Source: a virus (lineage: Duplodnaviria > Heunggongvirae > Uroviricota > Caudoviricetes). Taken from it: 64,000 bases of DNA. Where the stretch lies: IMG/VR virus record IMGVR_UViG_2823670853_000002. One strand, written 5' to 3'. The notes under the pieces are model-generated. The model made no database searches. It was not told the origin of the DNA and saw nothing but the letters and a program-made list of their open reading frames with translations. Positions 28,065 to 29,934 of this stretch are shown here, one piece after another (positions within the stretch are counted from its first letter, which is position 1; each line of letters begins with the position of its first letter). The position numbers and the translations under genes are program-made.

Positions 28065-28140
28065 TGGTGGCCCCTACCGGACTTGAACCGGTGACCGTGC
28101 GATTATGAGTCGCCAGCTCTAACCACTGAGCTAAGGGGCC
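28065..28140 (-). tRNA. tRNA with CAU anticodon, ileX-like (tRNA-Ile2; Met cannot be excluded)
   Basis: 76 nt incl. CCA; cloverleaf folds (acceptor GGCCCCT/AGGGGCC, T-loop GGTTCAAGTCC); sequence closely resembles E. coli ileX. Confidence 0.8.
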
Positions 28141-28143
28141 GGA

Positions 28144-28251
28144 TTACTGTTTACTAAGTGCTTCAATGGCGCTAACAATGCCGCCTACAACTATGGCAAC
28201 AATAATAATGAGAACAATTGGATACTTGTCAGCAAAATCCCAGAAGCCCAT
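28144..28251 (-). CDS. Small membrane peptide (35 aa), unlisted short ORF
   Basis: MGFWDFADKYPIVLIIIVAIVVGGIVSAIEALSKQ; ATGA-coupled to the upstream small ORF; tciC-like position. Confidence 0.3.
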   Translation of the reverse strand: MGFWDFADKYPIVLIIIVAIVVGGIVSAIEALSKQ

Positions 28252-28415
28252 CACTGATCCTTCGAAGCTGTTTTAAATATCGGCCATACCAATGTTACAG
28301 CTACTGCCACCAACGCCCCGTCCGATAAAACTGACAGGATTGTGCTGGTGAAATCCACCAGCACGGACAGCAAGAGAAAACCAATGGCGATTGCGATACG
28401 TGCCTTGCTTGCCAT
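28251..28415 (-). CDS. Small membrane protein (~54 aa), unlisted short ORF
   Basis: MASKARIAIAIGFLLLSVLVDFTSTILSVLSDGALVAVAVTLVW...; start overlaps the TerB-like gene stop. Confidence 0.35.
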   Translation of the reverse strand: MASKARIAIAIGFLLLSVLVDFTSTILSVLSDGALVAVAVTLVWPIFKTASKDQ

Positions 28416-28849
28416 TACAGATAATCTTCCACACGAAGACCTAAACGACGGCCTACTTCTTCCAGTACTTTGTGTTCTGCTGGCTCGATTTCACCGTCCG
28501 CTTCTGCAATTGTCAGCATGTTAACGAATACTTCTTCCGCTTCTTTTGGATCGTTTTTGATATCTTCAATTTCGCGAAGGATATTCATGCGACCAACACG
28601 GAAGCCAGCTTCCAGTTGCTCGGTAAAGCGGGTAATTGTTGCAGTAATTTCGTTACCAAAATGACTAAGACGCGGATTAGAGCGGACAAGCTGATCAAGT
28701 TTCGCTGTTTCTTCTTTTTCGATTTCACCATCAGCGGCAGACACCAACAAACAGCCACCGATAATGGCCTCCATCAGATCGCGATTCTCAACTTTTTTCA
28801 GCTCTACTTTTGCAGAAGCGACTTTCTTGCCGAACAATTTACCGAACAT
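28415..28849 (-). CDS. TerB-like tellurite-resistance domain protein (P1 TciA position)
   Basis: 144 aa; two acidic helical repeats (AADGEIEKEE... / AEADGEIEPAE...) typical of the TerB fold. Confidence 0.55.
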   Translation of the reverse strand: MFGKLFGKKVASAKVELKKVENRDLMEAIIGGCLLVSAADGEIEKEETAKLDQLVRSNPRLSHFGNEITATITRFTEQLEAGFRVGRMNILREIEDIKNDPKEAEEVFVNMLTIAEADGEIEPAEHKVLEEVGRRLGLRVEDYL

Positions 28850-28999
28850 TGGTTATCCCTCAATAAAAGTGACATATTTATTAGATTGCGGTGCCGGGTT
28901 CCTCCCGGTGTCCTTTGGCTGGTTATCCACCGTGGACGTGGAAACAAGGAGAAATAATGGACAGATATAACCATTTCCCCGCGTGCGCTTAGCCGCATT

Positions 29000-29775
29000 C
29001 ACCGCAACGGAAAGAGCATTCTTGGTGGACCTGTAGATTGGGATATGAACCCGTTACAGGAGAATGCTCTTACCTGTTACGTGCTCCGTTTCGTGGAGCT
29101 AACGGCGGGTGATCGGGCCGCACCAGACTGGACTTATTTCAGCGTTATGCTCATGCCAGAGAGTCAAACTGTGATGGTCGGTGCTGAACTCCGACACAGG
29201 GTTGTAGCAAGCCCCGCAAAGCGCGCACTACTGTAGTTGCGGCACATCAGCCTGTGCATTCACCACAATGTTGAGAACACTGGTTGTCACGCTGCAACGC
29301 AACATTTATTCGTAGATTGGGATATGACCCCGTTACGCCAGTGTTCTCAACGTTGTAGTGCCGGTTACGGTTCCGGCCAGGCCTCTTCCTCAACGGGGTG
29401 TTCTCCATACGGACTACCGTTTATTGGTCGTTCCTGCGGTTTATGTTGTGAAGCCAGATGCTTATCTTCTGGTTGCTTCAAAGAGCTGCACTTCATCACA
29501 ACGGTAAGAGCACTCGATGCATTTAAGCCAAGCCCCATAAGGGAGAATGCCCTTACCTGTTGTGTTGTGATGACCGGTGCTGATCTCCGGCTTGCGGTTA
29601 TTTCAGACTCTCACGGGCGTTTAATTGCCCCGCCGAACAGCTCTTTTCCGCAATAGCTGCAATGTCTTTCGCGCATCAGCCTGCGCATTCATCACAACGG
29701 TAAGGGTACTTCGTAGGGATTCGAACCCTCTGCCAAGCTCGGCGATCTCCGACGTCGCAAAATACCCTTACCTGT
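29000..29775. repeat. Array of degenerate tRNA-like repeat units
   Basis: Four related units (around 29010-29100, 29260-29370, 29480-29585, 29690-29775) sharing CATTCA(C/T)CACAA..GTAGATTGGGATATGA.CCCGTTAC and CCCTTACCTGTTG blocks with imperfect stems. Confidence 0.45.
29698..29772 (-). pseudogene. tRNA-like remnant (acceptor-like 7-bp stem and T-arm, no canonical D/anticodon arms)
   Basis: Reverse complement has GGTAAGG...AGGGTTCGAATCCCT...CCTTACC; T-arm GGTTCGAATCC present but an 8-nt insertion separates it from the acceptor strand. Confidence 0.3.
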
Positions 29776-29780
29776 TGTGC

Positions 29781-29856
29781 TGGTGCCGATTAACGGACTC
29801 GAACCGCTGACATCCTGCTTACAAGGCAGGCGCTCTACCAACTGAGCTAAACCGGC
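29781..29856 (-). tRNA. tRNA-Thr (UGU)
   Basis: 76 nt incl. CCA; anticodon loop CUUGUAA; acceptor GCCGGTT/AATCGGC; T-loop GGTTCGAGTCC. Confidence 0.85.
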
Positions 29857-29858
29857 AT

Positions 29859-29934
29859 TGGCGATGGTGGATGGATTTGAACCATCGACCCGTTGATTAA
29901 CAGTCAACCGCTCTAACCGCTGAGCTACACCATC
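29859..29934 (-). tRNA. tRNA-Asn (GUU)
   Basis: 76 nt incl. CCA; anticodon loop CUGUUAA; acceptor GATGGTG/CACCATC; separated from tRNA-Thr by 2 nt. Confidence 0.85.

What the first reader, a model, noticed from the sequence alone, without database searches (positions are those of the whole stretch)
28065..29934. tRNA cluster with three intact tRNAs and four degenerate tRNA-like repeat units
tRNA-Ile(CAU), tRNA-Thr(UGU) and tRNA-Asn(GUU) fold cleanly, and between them lie four related units that keep acceptor-like stems and in one case a T-arm but have lost canonical cloverleaf geometry. These may be decayed tRNA genes, processing signals or regulatory RNA structures. The listed ORFs over them are probably not coding.
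Basis: seen in the sequence. Interest (0 to 1): 0.4.

Follow-up and report, generated by a model that had tools for sequence, protein, structure and literature searches.

The report
Phage RNA stalks mimicking tRNA anticodon arms
The "degenerate tRNA" repeats in this P1-like phage are copies of a conserved but undescribed structured RNA module (a long double-stranded stalk carrying a look-alike of a tRNA anticodon arm) that also occurs in prophages of about half of all E. coli genomes and probably serves to cut a long non-coding early transcript into separate small RNAs.

Summary
The window is a P1-type phage-plasmid. The three tRNAs are real (minus strand) and sit in the C1-repressed ban operon. 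The four repeat units are also real, and a fifth lies upstream of tRNA-Asn. ARAGORN and the Rfam tRNA model call none of them, and they are not decaying tRNA genes. Each is a 17-25 bp stalk with a conserved base (CACAAC/GUUGUG) carrying variable cargo. In U1 and U2 the cargo is a three-way junction whose arm is capped by GGG-NUCAUAN-CCC; in lambdoid copies this cap matches 14 of 14 nt of the E. coli initiator tRNA anticodon stem-loop. U4 carries an anticodon-like hairpin plus a perfect T-arm. A covariance model built only from lambdoid phages finds exactly these five units in the 64 kb window. Across 39 distinct sequences, 25 of 35 base pairs show compensatory changes. The family has no Rfam match and was not found in the searchable literature, yet it occurs in 46% of complete E. 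coli genomes. The spacer between U4 and U3 is 97-98% identical to the published sRNA-17, whose RACE-mapped 5' end falls on the GUUGUG at a stalk base. Best reading: processing stalks in a non-coding RNA operon. The role of the tRNA mimicry is unknown. The upl/plp ORFs are probably spurious.

The parts
29859..29934 (-). tRNA-Asn(GUU)
   Evidence: ARAGORN; Rfam tRNA 74.5 bits
29781..29856 (-). tRNA-Thr(UGU); its 3' CCA runs directly into the 5' arm of U4
   Evidence: ARAGORN; Rfam tRNA 72.9 bits; sequence
28065..28140 (-). tRNA with CAU anticodon (tRNA-Ile2 according to the P1 record)
   Evidence: ARAGORN; Rfam 66.2 bits; P1 annotation
30136..30220 (-). Unit U5: about 18-bp stalk CAACAGGUAAGGGCGCUG / CAGCGUCCUUUCCUGUUG with hairpin cargo, upstream of tRNA-Asn
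   Evidence: Model R1 23.6 bits, E 2e-4; fold z -4.16; one compensatory C-G to U-A change in D6/SJ46
29689..29780 (-). Unit U4: about 24-bp stalk; cargo is an anticodon-like hairpin GCGAC-GUCGGAG-AUCGC (29742-29758) plus a perfect T-arm (29714-29731)
   Evidence: Fold z -4.23; R1 19.2 bits; homolog in Enterobacter phage BUCT554 with identical cargo and compensatory stalk changes
29564..29698 (-). sRNA-17-like body between U4 and U3: hairpin B (29671-29686), central hairpins, hairpin A (29574-29590); can be closed by the 9-bp stem GUUGUGAUG/CAUCACAAC
   Evidence: 97-98% identical to lambdoid and Stx phages; equals the first ~134 nt of published sRNA-17; fold
29493..29573 (-). Unit U3: stalk UCAUCACAAC..CAACAGGUAAGGGCAUUC / GAGUGCUCUUACCGUUGUGAUGA with small cargo; absent from canonical P1
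   Evidence: Fold z -5.85; R1 19.2 bits; the 196-bp period is missing in NC_005856 (coordinates)
29441..29502 (-). Small spacer module with a hairpin-A variant (CCAGA-AGAUAAGCA-UCUGG, 29454-29472) and a solitary CACAAC (29450); conserved in Sashavirus and Klebsiella phages
   Evidence: (query 277-352)
29260..29360 (-). Unit U2: 21-bp stalk plus three-way junction; P2 arm capped by GGG-GUCAUAU-CCC (29320-29332); followed by hairpin B (29242-29257)
   Evidence: R1 38.4 bits, E 7.5e-9; fold z -5.72
28999..29083 (-). Unit U1: stalk plus junction; P2 arm capped by GGG-UUCAUAU-CCC (29041-29053)
   Evidence: R1 44 bits, E 1.6e-10; fold z -3.91
28887..29006 (-). STnc100-like body forming the tciA 5' leader; closed by GUUGCGGUG/CACCGCAAU
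   Evidence: Rfam RF02076 38 bits, E 4.5e-6, below the gathering score of 47; fold z -2.85; the K751 homolog passes gathering at 48.8 bits
28144..28849 (-). tciA (28415-28849), tciB (28251-28415), tciC (28144-28254): real coding genes of the same operon
   Evidence: Pfam TerB 2e-14 and DUF3927 1e-25; P1 annotation
30400..30491 (-). dicF-like region of the P1 annotation, ending in an intrinsic terminator (30407-30426); first RNA of the operon after the P1ban/Op72 promoter
   Evidence: P1 annotation mapped by offset; terminator scan
29045..29656 (+). upl-like (29045-29236) and plp-like (29237-29656) ORFs on the opposite strand: judged not coding
   Evidence: No Pfam match; upl matches only PHROGs built from P1-like ORFs; plp matches nothing; ORFs not annotated in P7 or D6; the 196-bp (non-multiple-of-3) indel changes plp

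Best explanation
The units are copies of a conserved modular RNA element, a 'stalk cassette', encoded in the roughly 1.7 kb untranslated stretch of the C1-repressed ban operon. The operon order is: P1ban promoter, dicF-like RNA, U5, tRNA-Asn, tRNA-Thr, U4, sRNA-17-like RNA, U3, U2, U1, STnc100-like leader, tciABC, tRNA-Ile, ban. Each unit folds co-transcriptionally into a 17-25 bp double-stranded stalk with a conserved base (CACAAC paired with GUUGUG) and an adjacent bulge or mismatch. The stalk carries variable cargo. In U1 and U2 the cargo is a three-way junction with an arm that mimics the anticodon stem-loop of initiator tRNA. In U4 it is an anticodon-like hairpin plus a T-arm. SHOWN: the structure is conserved with compensatory changes in unrelated phages; the sense strand is the operon strand; the units are not tRNAs by any model; a homologous stalk base is the 5' end of a stable RNA in vivo. 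INFERRED: the stalks act as punctuation. A host endonuclease cuts at or near the stalk base (RNase III on the duplex followed by RNase E/G, as in rRNA maturation, is my best guess). This separates tRNAs, sRNA bodies and the tciABC-ban mRNA. The sequence that ends one unit (GUUGYGRUGA) is the complement of the sequence that starts the next (UCAYCACAAC). The freed spacer RNAs can therefore re-close into compact RNAs with a 9-10 bp terminal stem, while the stalk-plus-cargo pieces are released as small tRNA-arm mimics. What the mimics bind is not known.
For: 1. Family membership: model R1, built from 13 lambdoid sequences with no P1 sequence, scores U1 at 44 bits and U2 at 38.4 bits over P1+P2, and U5, U3 and U4 at 19-24 bits over the stalk only. 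Nothing else in the window scores E<0.1.
2. Covariation in the seed alignment: 93.4% of cells paired, 8 pairs changed on both sides, 0 of 500 shuffles reach this, and slid controls give 35-52% paired.
3. Covariation family-wide: 39 distinct sense sequences, 92.9% paired, 25 of 35 pairs with compensatory changes.
4. Strand: sense hits score about 100 bits against about 37 antisense. There are 82 G.U cells against 35 A.C cells, and 28 of the A.C cells sit at two positions that are usually mismatched.
5. U4: the BUCT554 homolog has identical cargo, and its stalk changes from GGGUAUUUU/GAAGUACCC to GAGCAUUGC/GCAGUGCUC.
6. Mimicry: CGGGCUCAUAACCC equals initiator tRNA positions 28-41. The tRNA sequence was verified in 5426 of 5426 E. 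coli genomes. CAU is invariant in all 39 sequences and in a sample selected without reference to the loop.
7. Operon context: P1 and P7 annotations.
8. Processing: sRNA-17 is a 193-nt RNA mapped by 5'/3' RACE and Northern (PMC7719688). It runs from GUUGUGGUGAAUGC to the terminator CUCUUUU, which is exactly 193 nt in mEp460 (L003 2636-2444). Deleting it raises the downstream yfdP about 96-fold.
9. Closing stems of the spacer bodies fold as predicted. The STnc100-like closing stem differs from the Rfam consensus by three compensatory pairs.
10. The same chained stalk layout occurs in Klebsiella phage K751.
Against: No RNA-end or expression data exist for P1 itself. The sRNA-17 5' end could be a primary transcription start, as its authors proposed (an ArcA-regulated promoter), rather than a processing site. 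A cut 5-6 bp from the base of a helix over 20 bp long is not typical of RNase III, so the nuclease is a guess. The SJ46 phage carries a hybrid unit (U2 5' half fused to U1 3' half) whose stalk no longer pairs (24.9 bits). Canonical P1 lacks U3 altogether. Individual units are therefore dispensable. The alignment used for the 39-sequence count was fitted to the model and so leans towards the structure. Processing alone does not explain why an initiator-tRNA anticodon arm is so strictly conserved.
Confidence: 0.55

Rival explanations
1. Anticodon-arm decoys are the main function. The stalks only stabilise and present tRNA anticodon-arm mimics (initiator tRNA in U1, U2 and the lambdoid copies; a CGG-type loop in U4). 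These mimics would titrate a tRNA-directed host or competitor factor. Candidates are a VapC-type PIN toxin that cleaves initiator tRNA in its anticodon loop, another anticodon nuclease, MetRS, or the 30S P site. This would protect early phage development. It is compatible with the processing model.
For: There is a 14 of 14 nt match to the initiator tRNA anticodon stem-loop. The three capping G-C pairs vary in only one sequence and U33-CAU-A37 is invariant, while the surrounding stems covary. A second cargo type has U33 and a 7-nt loop and is conserved between P1 and BUCT554. Expression is from early, repressor-controlled operons. The element co-occurs with genuine phage tRNAs, which are known from published work to counter tRNA-targeting defences (my own knowledge).
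Against: No binding partner has been tested. U3, U5 and the K751 units carry cargo with no recognisable anticodon arm. Positions 32 and 38 vary (CUCAUAA, UUCAUAU, GUCAUAU), including the base next to the reported VapC cleavage site. The copy number of a leader RNA may be low relative to cellular tRNA-fMet.
Confidence: 0.17
2. Transcription-elongation elements. The units keep RNA polymerase terminator-resistant or Rho-resistant across a long untranslated operon, as the boxA/boxC system of rRNA operons or the HK022 put RNAs do. The 3' arm (G)UGCUCUU..GUUGUGUGG resembles boxA (UGCUCUUUA) followed by a GU-rich boxC.
For: The stretches concerned are long untranslated RNA (1.7 kb in P1, 3.3 kb in K751) that would otherwise be exposed to Rho. 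The lambdoid copies lie in the pL leader, where nutL or putL sit in other phages, and no N-like ORF is present. An intrinsic terminator directly precedes the lambdoid junction. The 3' arms AUGCUCUUUCC (U1) and GUGCUCUUACC (U3) match boxA in 7-8 consecutive bases (boxA consensus from my own knowledge).
Against: The boxA-like stretch is buried in a very stable helix and varies with compensating changes (GUUCUC in U2, ACCCUU in U4), so pairing rather than sequence is selected. The model finds nothing significant in HK022. In lysogens the terminator after sRNA-17 works efficiently even though a unit lies upstream.
Confidence: 0.12
3. Decayed tRNA genes: pseudogenes left by tRNA-gene turnover, with no present function.
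For: The units lie within a tRNA cluster. U4 keeps a perfect T-arm, and U1 and U2 keep an anticodon-arm-like hairpin. P7 and D6 carry an intact 87-nt tRNA at an equivalent place. Unit number varies between P1 relatives.
Against: ARAGORN and the Rfam tRNA model give no call on any unit even at E<=10. Similarity to tRNA-fMet is confined to about 17 nt. Compensatory changes preserve the non-tRNA stalk and junction in unrelated phages. The family is present in 2492 of 5426 E. coli genomes, at a fixed position in prophage early operons that have no tRNAs nearby.
Confidence: 0.05
4. DNA-level elements. The inverted repeats would be recombination or transposition sites (MITE-like ends or integron attC-like folded sites) bounding exchangeable cassettes.
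For: The inverted arms have AAC...GTT at the base, an extrahelical base, variable cargo and conserved arms across unrelated phages. Unit-sized deletions have breakpoints inside the arms. One exact 196-bp period is missing in canonical P1.
Against: There is a strong strand asymmetry with many G.U pairs on the transcribed strand. The arms covary rather than keeping a fixed recognition sequence. The cargo loops are conserved. No integrase or transposase is associated in P1, mEp460, BUCT554 or K751. The deletions are explained by ordinary recombination between direct repeats.
Confidence: 0.05
5. The region encodes the proteins Upl and Plp on the plus strand, as annotated in P1, and the repeats are incidental.
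For: ORFs of 63 and 139 aa exist and are annotated in P1, RCS47 and JL22.
Against: There is no Pfam match. The only PHROG matches are families made of the same P1-like ORFs. The ORFs are not annotated in P7 or D6. They lie antisense to a conserved structured RNA. plp overlaps tRNA-Thr in P1 and is altered by the 196-bp indel here. Their promoters are predictions only.
Confidence: 0.03

Closest known systems
sRNA-17 of E. coli K1 RS218 (mEp460-type prophage; PMC7719688)
   Same: Window 29564-29698 (between U4 and U3) is 97-98% identical to the first ~134 nt of this experimentally detected 193-nt RNA. Both start with GUUGUG(R)UGAAUGC followed by hairpin GCGCA-GGCUGA-UGCGC.
   Different: In P1 the body is followed by another stalk unit (U3) instead of the intrinsic terminator. 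sRNA-17 corresponds to a spacer, not to the repeat units. Its authors describe neither the flanking stalks nor the three-way junction.
STnc100 / PasD prophage sRNAs (Rfam RF02076; bioRxiv 10.64898/2026.05.13.724894)
   Same: The RNA after U1 (28887-29006) aligns to model positions 31-147, with the closing stem kept through three compensatory pairs. A full-length match above the gathering score lies in the related K751 array.
   Different: The P1 match scores 38 bits, below the gathering score of 47, and lacks the ends of the model. It is again a spacer body, not a unit.
RNase III processing stalks of rRNA operons and T7 early mRNA (textbook knowledge)
   Same: Long (about 20 bp or more) irregular helices formed by sequences flanking a cargo RNA, repeated along a polycistronic transcript that also contains tRNAs.
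   Different: No cleavage data exist here. The only mapped end lies near the helix base rather than mid-helix. The cargo is small and tRNA-arm-like. Adjacent stalks share complementary end motifs that allow alternative pairing.
Stable RNAs (species 1 and 2) of the phage T4 tRNA gene cluster (my own knowledge)
   Same: Small non-tRNA structured RNAs of unknown function, encoded among phage tRNA genes and released by processing of a common precursor.
   Different: No sequence or structural relation was tested. The T4 RNAs are not known to have long stalks or anticodon-arm mimicry.
Bacterial Y RNA-like YrlA (Rfam RF02553)
   Same: Architecture: a long basal stem plus a tRNA-like module. U4 has a stalk plus a T-arm.
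   Different: The YrlA model hits only the tRNA-Thr/Asn pair, at 25.6 bits against a gathering score of 69, and no unit. The units have no D-arm. No Rsr gene was noted in the window, but this was not searched for.
tRNA anticodon-arm mimics in mRNA leaders, such as the thrS operator (textbook knowledge)
   Same: A hairpin in an untranslated RNA that copies the anticodon stem-loop of a specific tRNA.
   Different: Here the tRNA copied is the initiator, the element is phage-borne and multicopy, and no protein partner or regulated gene is known.
HK022 put antiterminator RNA
   Same: Position in the lambdoid pL leader of phages that lack an N-like gene.
   Different: Model R1 finds no significant match in HK022 20000-32000. 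put consists of two stem-loops, not a stalk with a three-way junction (my own knowledge).

Membership tests
tRNA (Rfam RF00005 / ARAGORN) | Cloverleaf recognised by the covariance model at 29 bits or more, or by ARAGORN | tested here: not met
   Only the three known tRNAs are called. No unit gives a tRNA hit even at E<=10.
tRNA pseudogene | Residual full-length similarity to a tRNA, with no selection on the derived structure | tested here: not met
   Similarity to tRNA-fMet is limited to about 17 nt. The non-tRNA stalk and junction covary.
Stalk-cassette / three-way-junction family defined here (model R1) | P1 stalk of 17 bp or more with CAAC/GUUG base, P2 arm capped by GGG-NUCAUAN-CCC, and P3 hairpin | tested here: met
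   U1 scores 44 bits and U2 38.4 bits over all model positions. U3, U4 and U5 match the stalk only (19-24 bits).
sRNA-17 (PMC7719688) | Sequence identity to the 193-nt RNA | tested here: met
   97-98% identity over about 134 nt, window 29563-29699.
sRNA-17 (PMC7719688) | 3' end at the intrinsic terminator GGUACCGCUCUUUU | tested here: not met
   The terminator portion is absent in P1 and the body runs into U3.
STnc100 (RF02076) | Score at or above the gathering threshold of 47 bits | tested here: inconclusive
   38 bits, E 4.5e-6, model positions 31-147 only. D6 scores 39.6 bits. K751 scores 48.8 bits and passes.
YrlA / Y RNA-like (RF02553) | Covariance-model match at 69 bits or more | tested here: not met
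   No unit is hit. There is a 25.6-bit hit on the tRNA pair only.
YrlA / Y RNA-like (RF02553) | Adjacent rsr (Ro) gene | not tested
   The P1 annotation of the neighbourhood shows none. The whole window was not searched for Rsr.
RNase III processing stalk | About two turns of double-stranded RNA flanking a cargo | tested here: met
   17-25 bp stalks.
RNase III processing stalk | Staggered cleavage dependent on rnc | not testable with these tools
   The only indirect evidence is the sRNA-17 5' end at the stalk base.
HK022 put RNA | Homology to putL or putR | tested here: not met
   R1 has no significant hit in HK022. The put sites are not annotated in the record, so only this one-way test was possible.
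boxA (NusB/NusE site) | Accessible UGCUCUUUA-type sequence, conserved as sequence | tested here: inconclusive
   7-8 nt matches in U1 and U3, but they are buried in the helix and vary with compensation in U2, U4 and U5.
Integron attC / MITE | Associated integrase or transposase; symmetric (DNA-level) conservation | tested here: not met
   No such gene is annotated nearby in four phage contexts. There is strong sense/antisense asymmetry.

The most novel reading that the evidence does not exclude
The stalk cassettes are a widespread, undescribed class of phage RNA anti-defence or take-over element. They would be nuclease-processed small RNAs that display exact mimics of host tRNA anticodon arms, above all that of initiator tRNA. 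These mimics would act as decoys for tRNA-cleaving toxins (for example VapC-type PIN nucleases that inactivate tRNA-fMet) or for a translation-initiation component. They are expressed from the first minutes of infection by P1-like, lambdoid, epsilon15-like and Ackermannviridae phages.
Probability: 0.15. Interest if true: 0.9.

Novelty: new variant of a known kind. Interest (0 to 1): 0.62.

Why it matters
P1 is one of the most studied phages, yet about 1 kb of its ban operon is still annotated as two hypothetical proteins (Upl, Plp) on what appears to be the wrong strand. The analysis indicates this stretch is a non-coding RNA operon built from a conserved stalk module. The module has no match in Rfam 15 and was not found in the searchable literature. 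It is nevertheless present in 46% of complete E. coli genomes, in 903 plasmids, and in unrelated temperate and virulent phages. It links three separately reported prophage RNAs (dicF-like, sRNA-17, STnc100/PasD) into one architecture and suggests how their ends may be generated. The exact, invariant copy of the initiator-tRNA anticodon stem-loop is a concrete handle that can be tested directly. If it is a decoy or a ribosome or synthetase ligand, that would be a new way for phages to interfere with host translation or with tRNA-targeting immunity.

Tried and rejected
1. Rfam at the gathering threshold and at E<=10 on P1, mEp460, K751, BUCT554 and D6 finds no family for the units. The mir-142, mir-5985 and Plastid-ycf2 hits are artefacts of hairpins or tRNA antisense.
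2. A plain MAFFT alignment of lambdoid and P1-type units put the arms out of register, and RNAalifold then found only 8 pairs. I replaced it with a model-guided alignment.
3. HK022 put RNA as a homolog: no significant hit.
4. E. coli K-12 as an experimental proxy: CPS-53 has yfdP but has lost the element.
5. Direct check of the sRNA-17 coordinates in RS218: the record is not in the collection. The coordinates were inferred instead from the supplementary alignment and the exact 193-nt length in mEp460.
6. The Lobocka 2004 P1 genome paper is not held.
7. The P1vir RNA-seq preprint has no data on upl, plp or the units.
8. Literature searches for tRNA-like elements, initiator mimics, Ackermannviridae non-coding regions and the unit sequences themselves found nothing. 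svsR (PMC12803456) lies at the 3' end of cI and is unrelated.
9. The lambdoid downstream gene (YfdP-like) has no Pfam domain and only a PHROG of unknown function, so it gives no functional clue.
10. The boxA/boxC resemblance and the attC/MITE idea were considered and downgraded (see rivals).

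
Full report
**What the window is.** The region 28850-29790 is 99.5% identical to phage P1 (OP279344) and 96-99% identical to other P1-like phage-plasmids. The window also carries the P1 C4 antisense RNA and a sok RNA. The annotated P1 record places the finding inside the C1-repressed ban operon, and everything relevant is on the minus strand. The order is: P1ban promoter with operator Op72, a dicF-like region, tRNA-Asn, tRNA-Thr, about 900 nt annotated on the opposite strand as upl and plp, tciA-tciB-tciC, tRNA-Ile, then ban.

**Checking the observation.** ARAGORN and the Rfam tRNA model find exactly three tRNAs at the stated coordinates. Between tRNA-Thr and tciA there are four related units (repeat family D2). 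I call them U4 (29689-29780), U3 (29493-29573), U2 (29260-29360) and U1 (28999-29083). A fifth unit, U5 (30136-30220), lies upstream of tRNA-Asn. As RNA on the minus strand, each folds into a long hairpin with z-scores of -3.9 to -5.9. No unit is called a tRNA by ARAGORN, or by the Rfam tRNA model even at E<=10. The stated range also includes the real genes tciA (TerB domain) and tciB (DUF3927), plus tciC as annotated in P1.

**Anatomy of a unit.**
- The common feature is a 17-25 bp stalk. Its 5' arm reads (UCAY)CACAAC-A-GGUAAGGG... and its 3' arm reads ...CCCUUACC-GUUGUG(RUGA). An A bulge or a mismatch sits next to the CAAC/GUUG base.
- The stalk carries variable cargo. U1 and U2 contain a three-way junction: P1 is the stalk, P2 is an arm capped by GGG-UUCAUAU-CCC (U1) or GGG-GUCAUAU-CCC (U2), and P3 is a variable hairpin.
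- U4 carries a hairpin GCGAC-GUCGGAG-AUCGC, which has a 7-nt loop with U at the second position, and a perfect T-arm AGGGUUCGAAUCCCU.
- U3 and U5 have other small hairpins.
- Small hairpins recur around the units and covary. Hairpin B follows a unit (GCGCA-GGCUGA-UGCGC, GCACA..UGUGC, UCGCA..UGCGA). Hairpin A precedes a unit (CCGG-AGAUCAGCA-CCGG, GUCGG-AGUUCAGCA-CCGAC).

**A widespread family.** The lambdoid instances fold into the same three-way junction with z-scores down to -7.6.
- I aligned 13 diverse lambdoid sequences, with no P1 sequence included, and wrote out the structure: P1 with 21 pairs, P2 with 7+3, P3 with 4. On this alignment 93.4% of cells pair and 8 pairs change on both sides. 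None of 500 shuffles reaches this, and sliding the partners drops pairing to 35-52%.
- The covariance model R1 built from this alignment was run over the whole window with filters off. It scores U1 (44 bits, E 1.6e-10) and U2 (38.4 bits) over the full model. It scores U5, U3 and U4 (19-24 bits) over the stalk alone. Nothing else reaches E<0.1.
- A model-guided alignment gives 39 distinct sense-strand sequences from P1-like, lambdoid and other phages. In it 92.9% of cells pair and 25 of 35 pairs show compensatory changes. The three capping G-C pairs are invariant apart from one G.U. This alignment is fitted to the model and so leans towards the structure.
- Sense hits score about 100 bits against about 37 for the antisense. 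G.U pairs (82 cells) greatly outnumber A.C cells once two positions that are usually mismatched are set aside. The functional molecule is therefore RNA of the operon strand.

**U4 is conserved independently.** Enterobacter phage BUCT554 (Uetakevirus) has the same cargo, with identical hairpin and T-arm. Its stalk changes from GGGUAUUUU/GAAGUACCC to GAGCAUUGC/GCAGUGCUC. Units from three unrelated phages share the arm AACAGGUAAG while carrying unrelated cargo.

**Spread.** The lambdoid version is present in 2492 of 5426 complete E. coli genomes, with up to 5 copies, and is unannotated or labelled hypothetical. The P1-type array is in 903 plasmids. There is no Rfam 15 match in P1, mEp460, K751, BUCT554 or D6. 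The unit sequences occur in no searchable paper.

**tRNA mimicry.** In lambdoid copies the P2 cap reads CGGGCUCAUAACCC. I confirmed the E. coli initiator tRNA sequence against all 5426 genomes, and the cap is identical to its positions 28-41: the three G-C pairs that mark initiator tRNA plus the whole CUCAUAA loop. In a sample chosen by the P1/P2 junction, so not by the loop, the loop is almost invariant and CAU is always kept. P1-type copies keep U33-CAU-A37 while positions 32 and 38 vary. Similarity to tRNA-fMet does not extend beyond about 17 nt. This looks like a selected mimic or a captured fragment, not a decaying gene.

**Context.**
- In lambdoid phages the junction lies 248-1340 nt downstream of the cI-type repressor gene on the same strand (24 loci). 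It lies 35-115 nt upstream of the first early-left gene, which is YfdP-like in 64 loci and RdgC-like in 11. It is therefore a pL-leader element, and these leaders have no N-like ORF.
- Klebsiella phage K751 (Ackermannviridae) has a gene-free stretch of about 3.3 kb built from the same parts. These are a unit with the P1-type arms, hairpins A and B, several tRNA-like pieces that ARAGORN does not call, at least six 20-24 bp stalks, and a full STnc100 match above the gathering score.

**Link to published RNAs.** The spacer between U4 and U3 (window 29563-29699) is 97-98% identical to lambdoid and Stx phages. That sequence is the 5' two-thirds of sRNA-17, a 193-nt RNA mapped by 5'/3' RACE and Northern in E. 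coli K1 RS218 (PMC7719688). From the paper's supplementary alignment, sRNA-17 runs from GUUGUGGUGAAUGC... to the terminator ...CCGCUCUUUU. In mEp460 that span is exactly 193 nt (L003 2636-2444). Its 5' end is therefore the first G of the conserved GUUGUG at the base of the 3' arm of a stalk unit. Its 3' end is an intrinsic terminator that immediately precedes the three-way junction. Deleting sRNA-17 raised yfdP about 96-fold, as expected if the terminator was removed with it. The RNA after U1 (28887-29006) is a sub-threshold STnc100 match (38 bits). Its closing stem UGCGGUG/CACCGCA differs from the family consensus caUGGUG/CACCAug by three compensatory pairs.

**Chained alternative pairing.** The sequence that ends a unit (GUUGYGRUGA) is the reverse complement of the sequence that begins the next unit (UCAYCACAAC). 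Each of these roughly 10-nt motifs can therefore pair in two ways. It can pair inside its own unit, forming the stalk base. Or it can pair across the spacer, closing the sRNA-17-like or STnc100-like body with a 9-bp stem. K751 shows the same overlap of successive helices.

**Mechanism.**
- Shown: the units are conserved structured RNA modules of the sense strand of an early untranslated transcript, and a homologous stalk base coincides with a stable RNA 5' end.
- Inferred (about 0.55 overall): the stalks punctuate a non-coding RNA operon. Host endonuclease cleavage at or near the stalk base would separate tRNAs, sRNA bodies and the tciABC-ban mRNA. My guess for the nuclease is RNase III followed by RNase E/G, as in rRNA maturation. 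The spacers would then re-close through the shared end motifs, and the stalk-cargo pieces would be released as small RNAs that present tRNA-arm mimics.
- Caveats: there are no P1 RNA-end data. The sRNA-17 end may be a primary transcription start. A cut near the helix base is atypical for RNase III. Individual units are dispensable, since canonical P1 lacks exactly one 196-bp period (U3 plus the sRNA-17-like body; coordinates) and SJ46 has a hybrid unit with a broken stalk.

**Rivals.** The decoy function for the anticodon-arm mimic is compatible with processing and is the most interesting reading (0.17 as the main function). An rrn-like or put-like elongation role scores 0.12; the boxA-like 3' arm is buried in the helix and covaries. 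Decayed tRNA genes score 0.05. DNA-level recombination sites score 0.05; strand asymmetry argues against them, and the unit-sized deletions are explained by recombination between direct repeats. Coding upl/plp scores 0.03.

**The ORFs.** upl matches only PHROG families made of the same P1-like ORFs, and plp matches nothing. Both lie antisense to the conserved RNA and are not annotated in P7 or D6. plp overlaps tRNA-Thr in P1 and is altered here by the 196-bp indel, which is not a multiple of three. They are most likely annotation artefacts.

**Verdict.** The element is an undescribed and very common phage RNA family that combines a processing-stalk-like helix with an exact initiator-tRNA anticodon-arm mimic. 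I rate it a new variant of known kinds of element, with interest 0.62.

Noticed in passing
window 28887-29006 (-): The tciA 5' leader is a sub-threshold match to the prophage sRNA family STnc100 (38 bits against a gathering score of 47). Its closing stem is preserved by three compensatory pairs. D6 scores 39.6 bits and K751 passes at 48.8 bits.
   Followed up: partly
window 29564-29698 (-): A P1-borne homolog (97-98%) of the first ~134 nt of the published sRNA-17 of E. coli K1. It lacks the terminator and is absent from canonical P1 (NC_005856).
   Followed up: yes
window 27925-28062 (-), between tRNA-Ile and ban: Another shared non-coding module: GGCACAUGCGUCGUUAGCGGUCUGG...CCAGGUAGCCGGAAUGUGCAAG aligns with the pL leader of mEp460 and the leader of Enterobacter phage BUCT554 (75% mean column identity, long-range complementary ends). 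Function unknown.
   Followed up: partly
window 30390-30491 (-), terminator 30407-30426: The 'dicF-like region' of the P1 annotation ends in a strong intrinsic terminator just after the P1ban promoter. Everything downstream in the operon therefore needs read-through. The Rfam DicF model gives no hit at E<=10.
   Followed up: partly
window 30306-30400 (-): The stretch GCGACUUUGCGGCGGUUUAGAAACUGACCAUUAAAGUAAAUGCAAACGAU after the terminator is conserved in D6, P7, SJ46 and in the K751 array (L126 ~2340-2400). It is another unassigned module.
   Followed up: no
L002 2638-2725 (-) (phage D6) and L004 2263-2349 (-) (P7): An 87-nt tRNA with anticodon UGA and an encoded CCA sits where this window has only units. 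It scores best against the Rfam tRNA-Sec model (43.1 bits against a gathering score of 47) because of its long acceptor and D stems and long variable arm. It is unannotated in P7.
   Followed up: partly
L126 1500-4800 (+) (Klebsiella phage K751, Ackermannviridae): A gene-free stretch of about 3.3 kb packed with long stalks, tRNA-like pieces that are not called as tRNAs (for example 2137-2205, with acceptor, D-arm and T-arm but no anticodon arm), an STnc100 copy and one tRNA-Met. It looks like a large non-coding RNA operon in a virulent phage.
   Followed up: partly
L001 versus window; L004, L002, L005: P1 relatives differ by whole units. Canonical P1 lacks exactly 196 bp (U3 plus the sRNA-17-like body). 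P7 lacks U4. D6 and SJ46 lack U3. SJ46 has a U2/U1 hybrid with a non-pairing stalk. The breakpoints lie in the conserved arms.
   Followed up: yes
L003 ~2445-2500 (-) (mEp460) and homologous prophages: An intrinsic terminator (GGCGGUACCAG...CUGGUACCGCUCUUUUU) directly abuts the three-way junction. Its U-tract can pair with a conserved GGAGAA 3' of the junction, extending the stalk. These phages have no N-like gene in the pL leader, so how the early-left operon reads through is open.
   Followed up: no
window 48316-48490 (-), 51947-52032 (-), 52101-52153 (-): A sok antitoxin RNA (114.9 bits), which as I recall canonical P1 does not carry. Also the P1 immunity RNAs C4 and its a1/b1 target.
   Followed up: no
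window 29045-29656 (+): The P1 genes upl and plp (the 'putative lipoprotein') appear to be annotation artefacts antisense to conserved structured RNA. They have been propagated to RCS47, JL22 and into PHROG families.
   Followed up: partly
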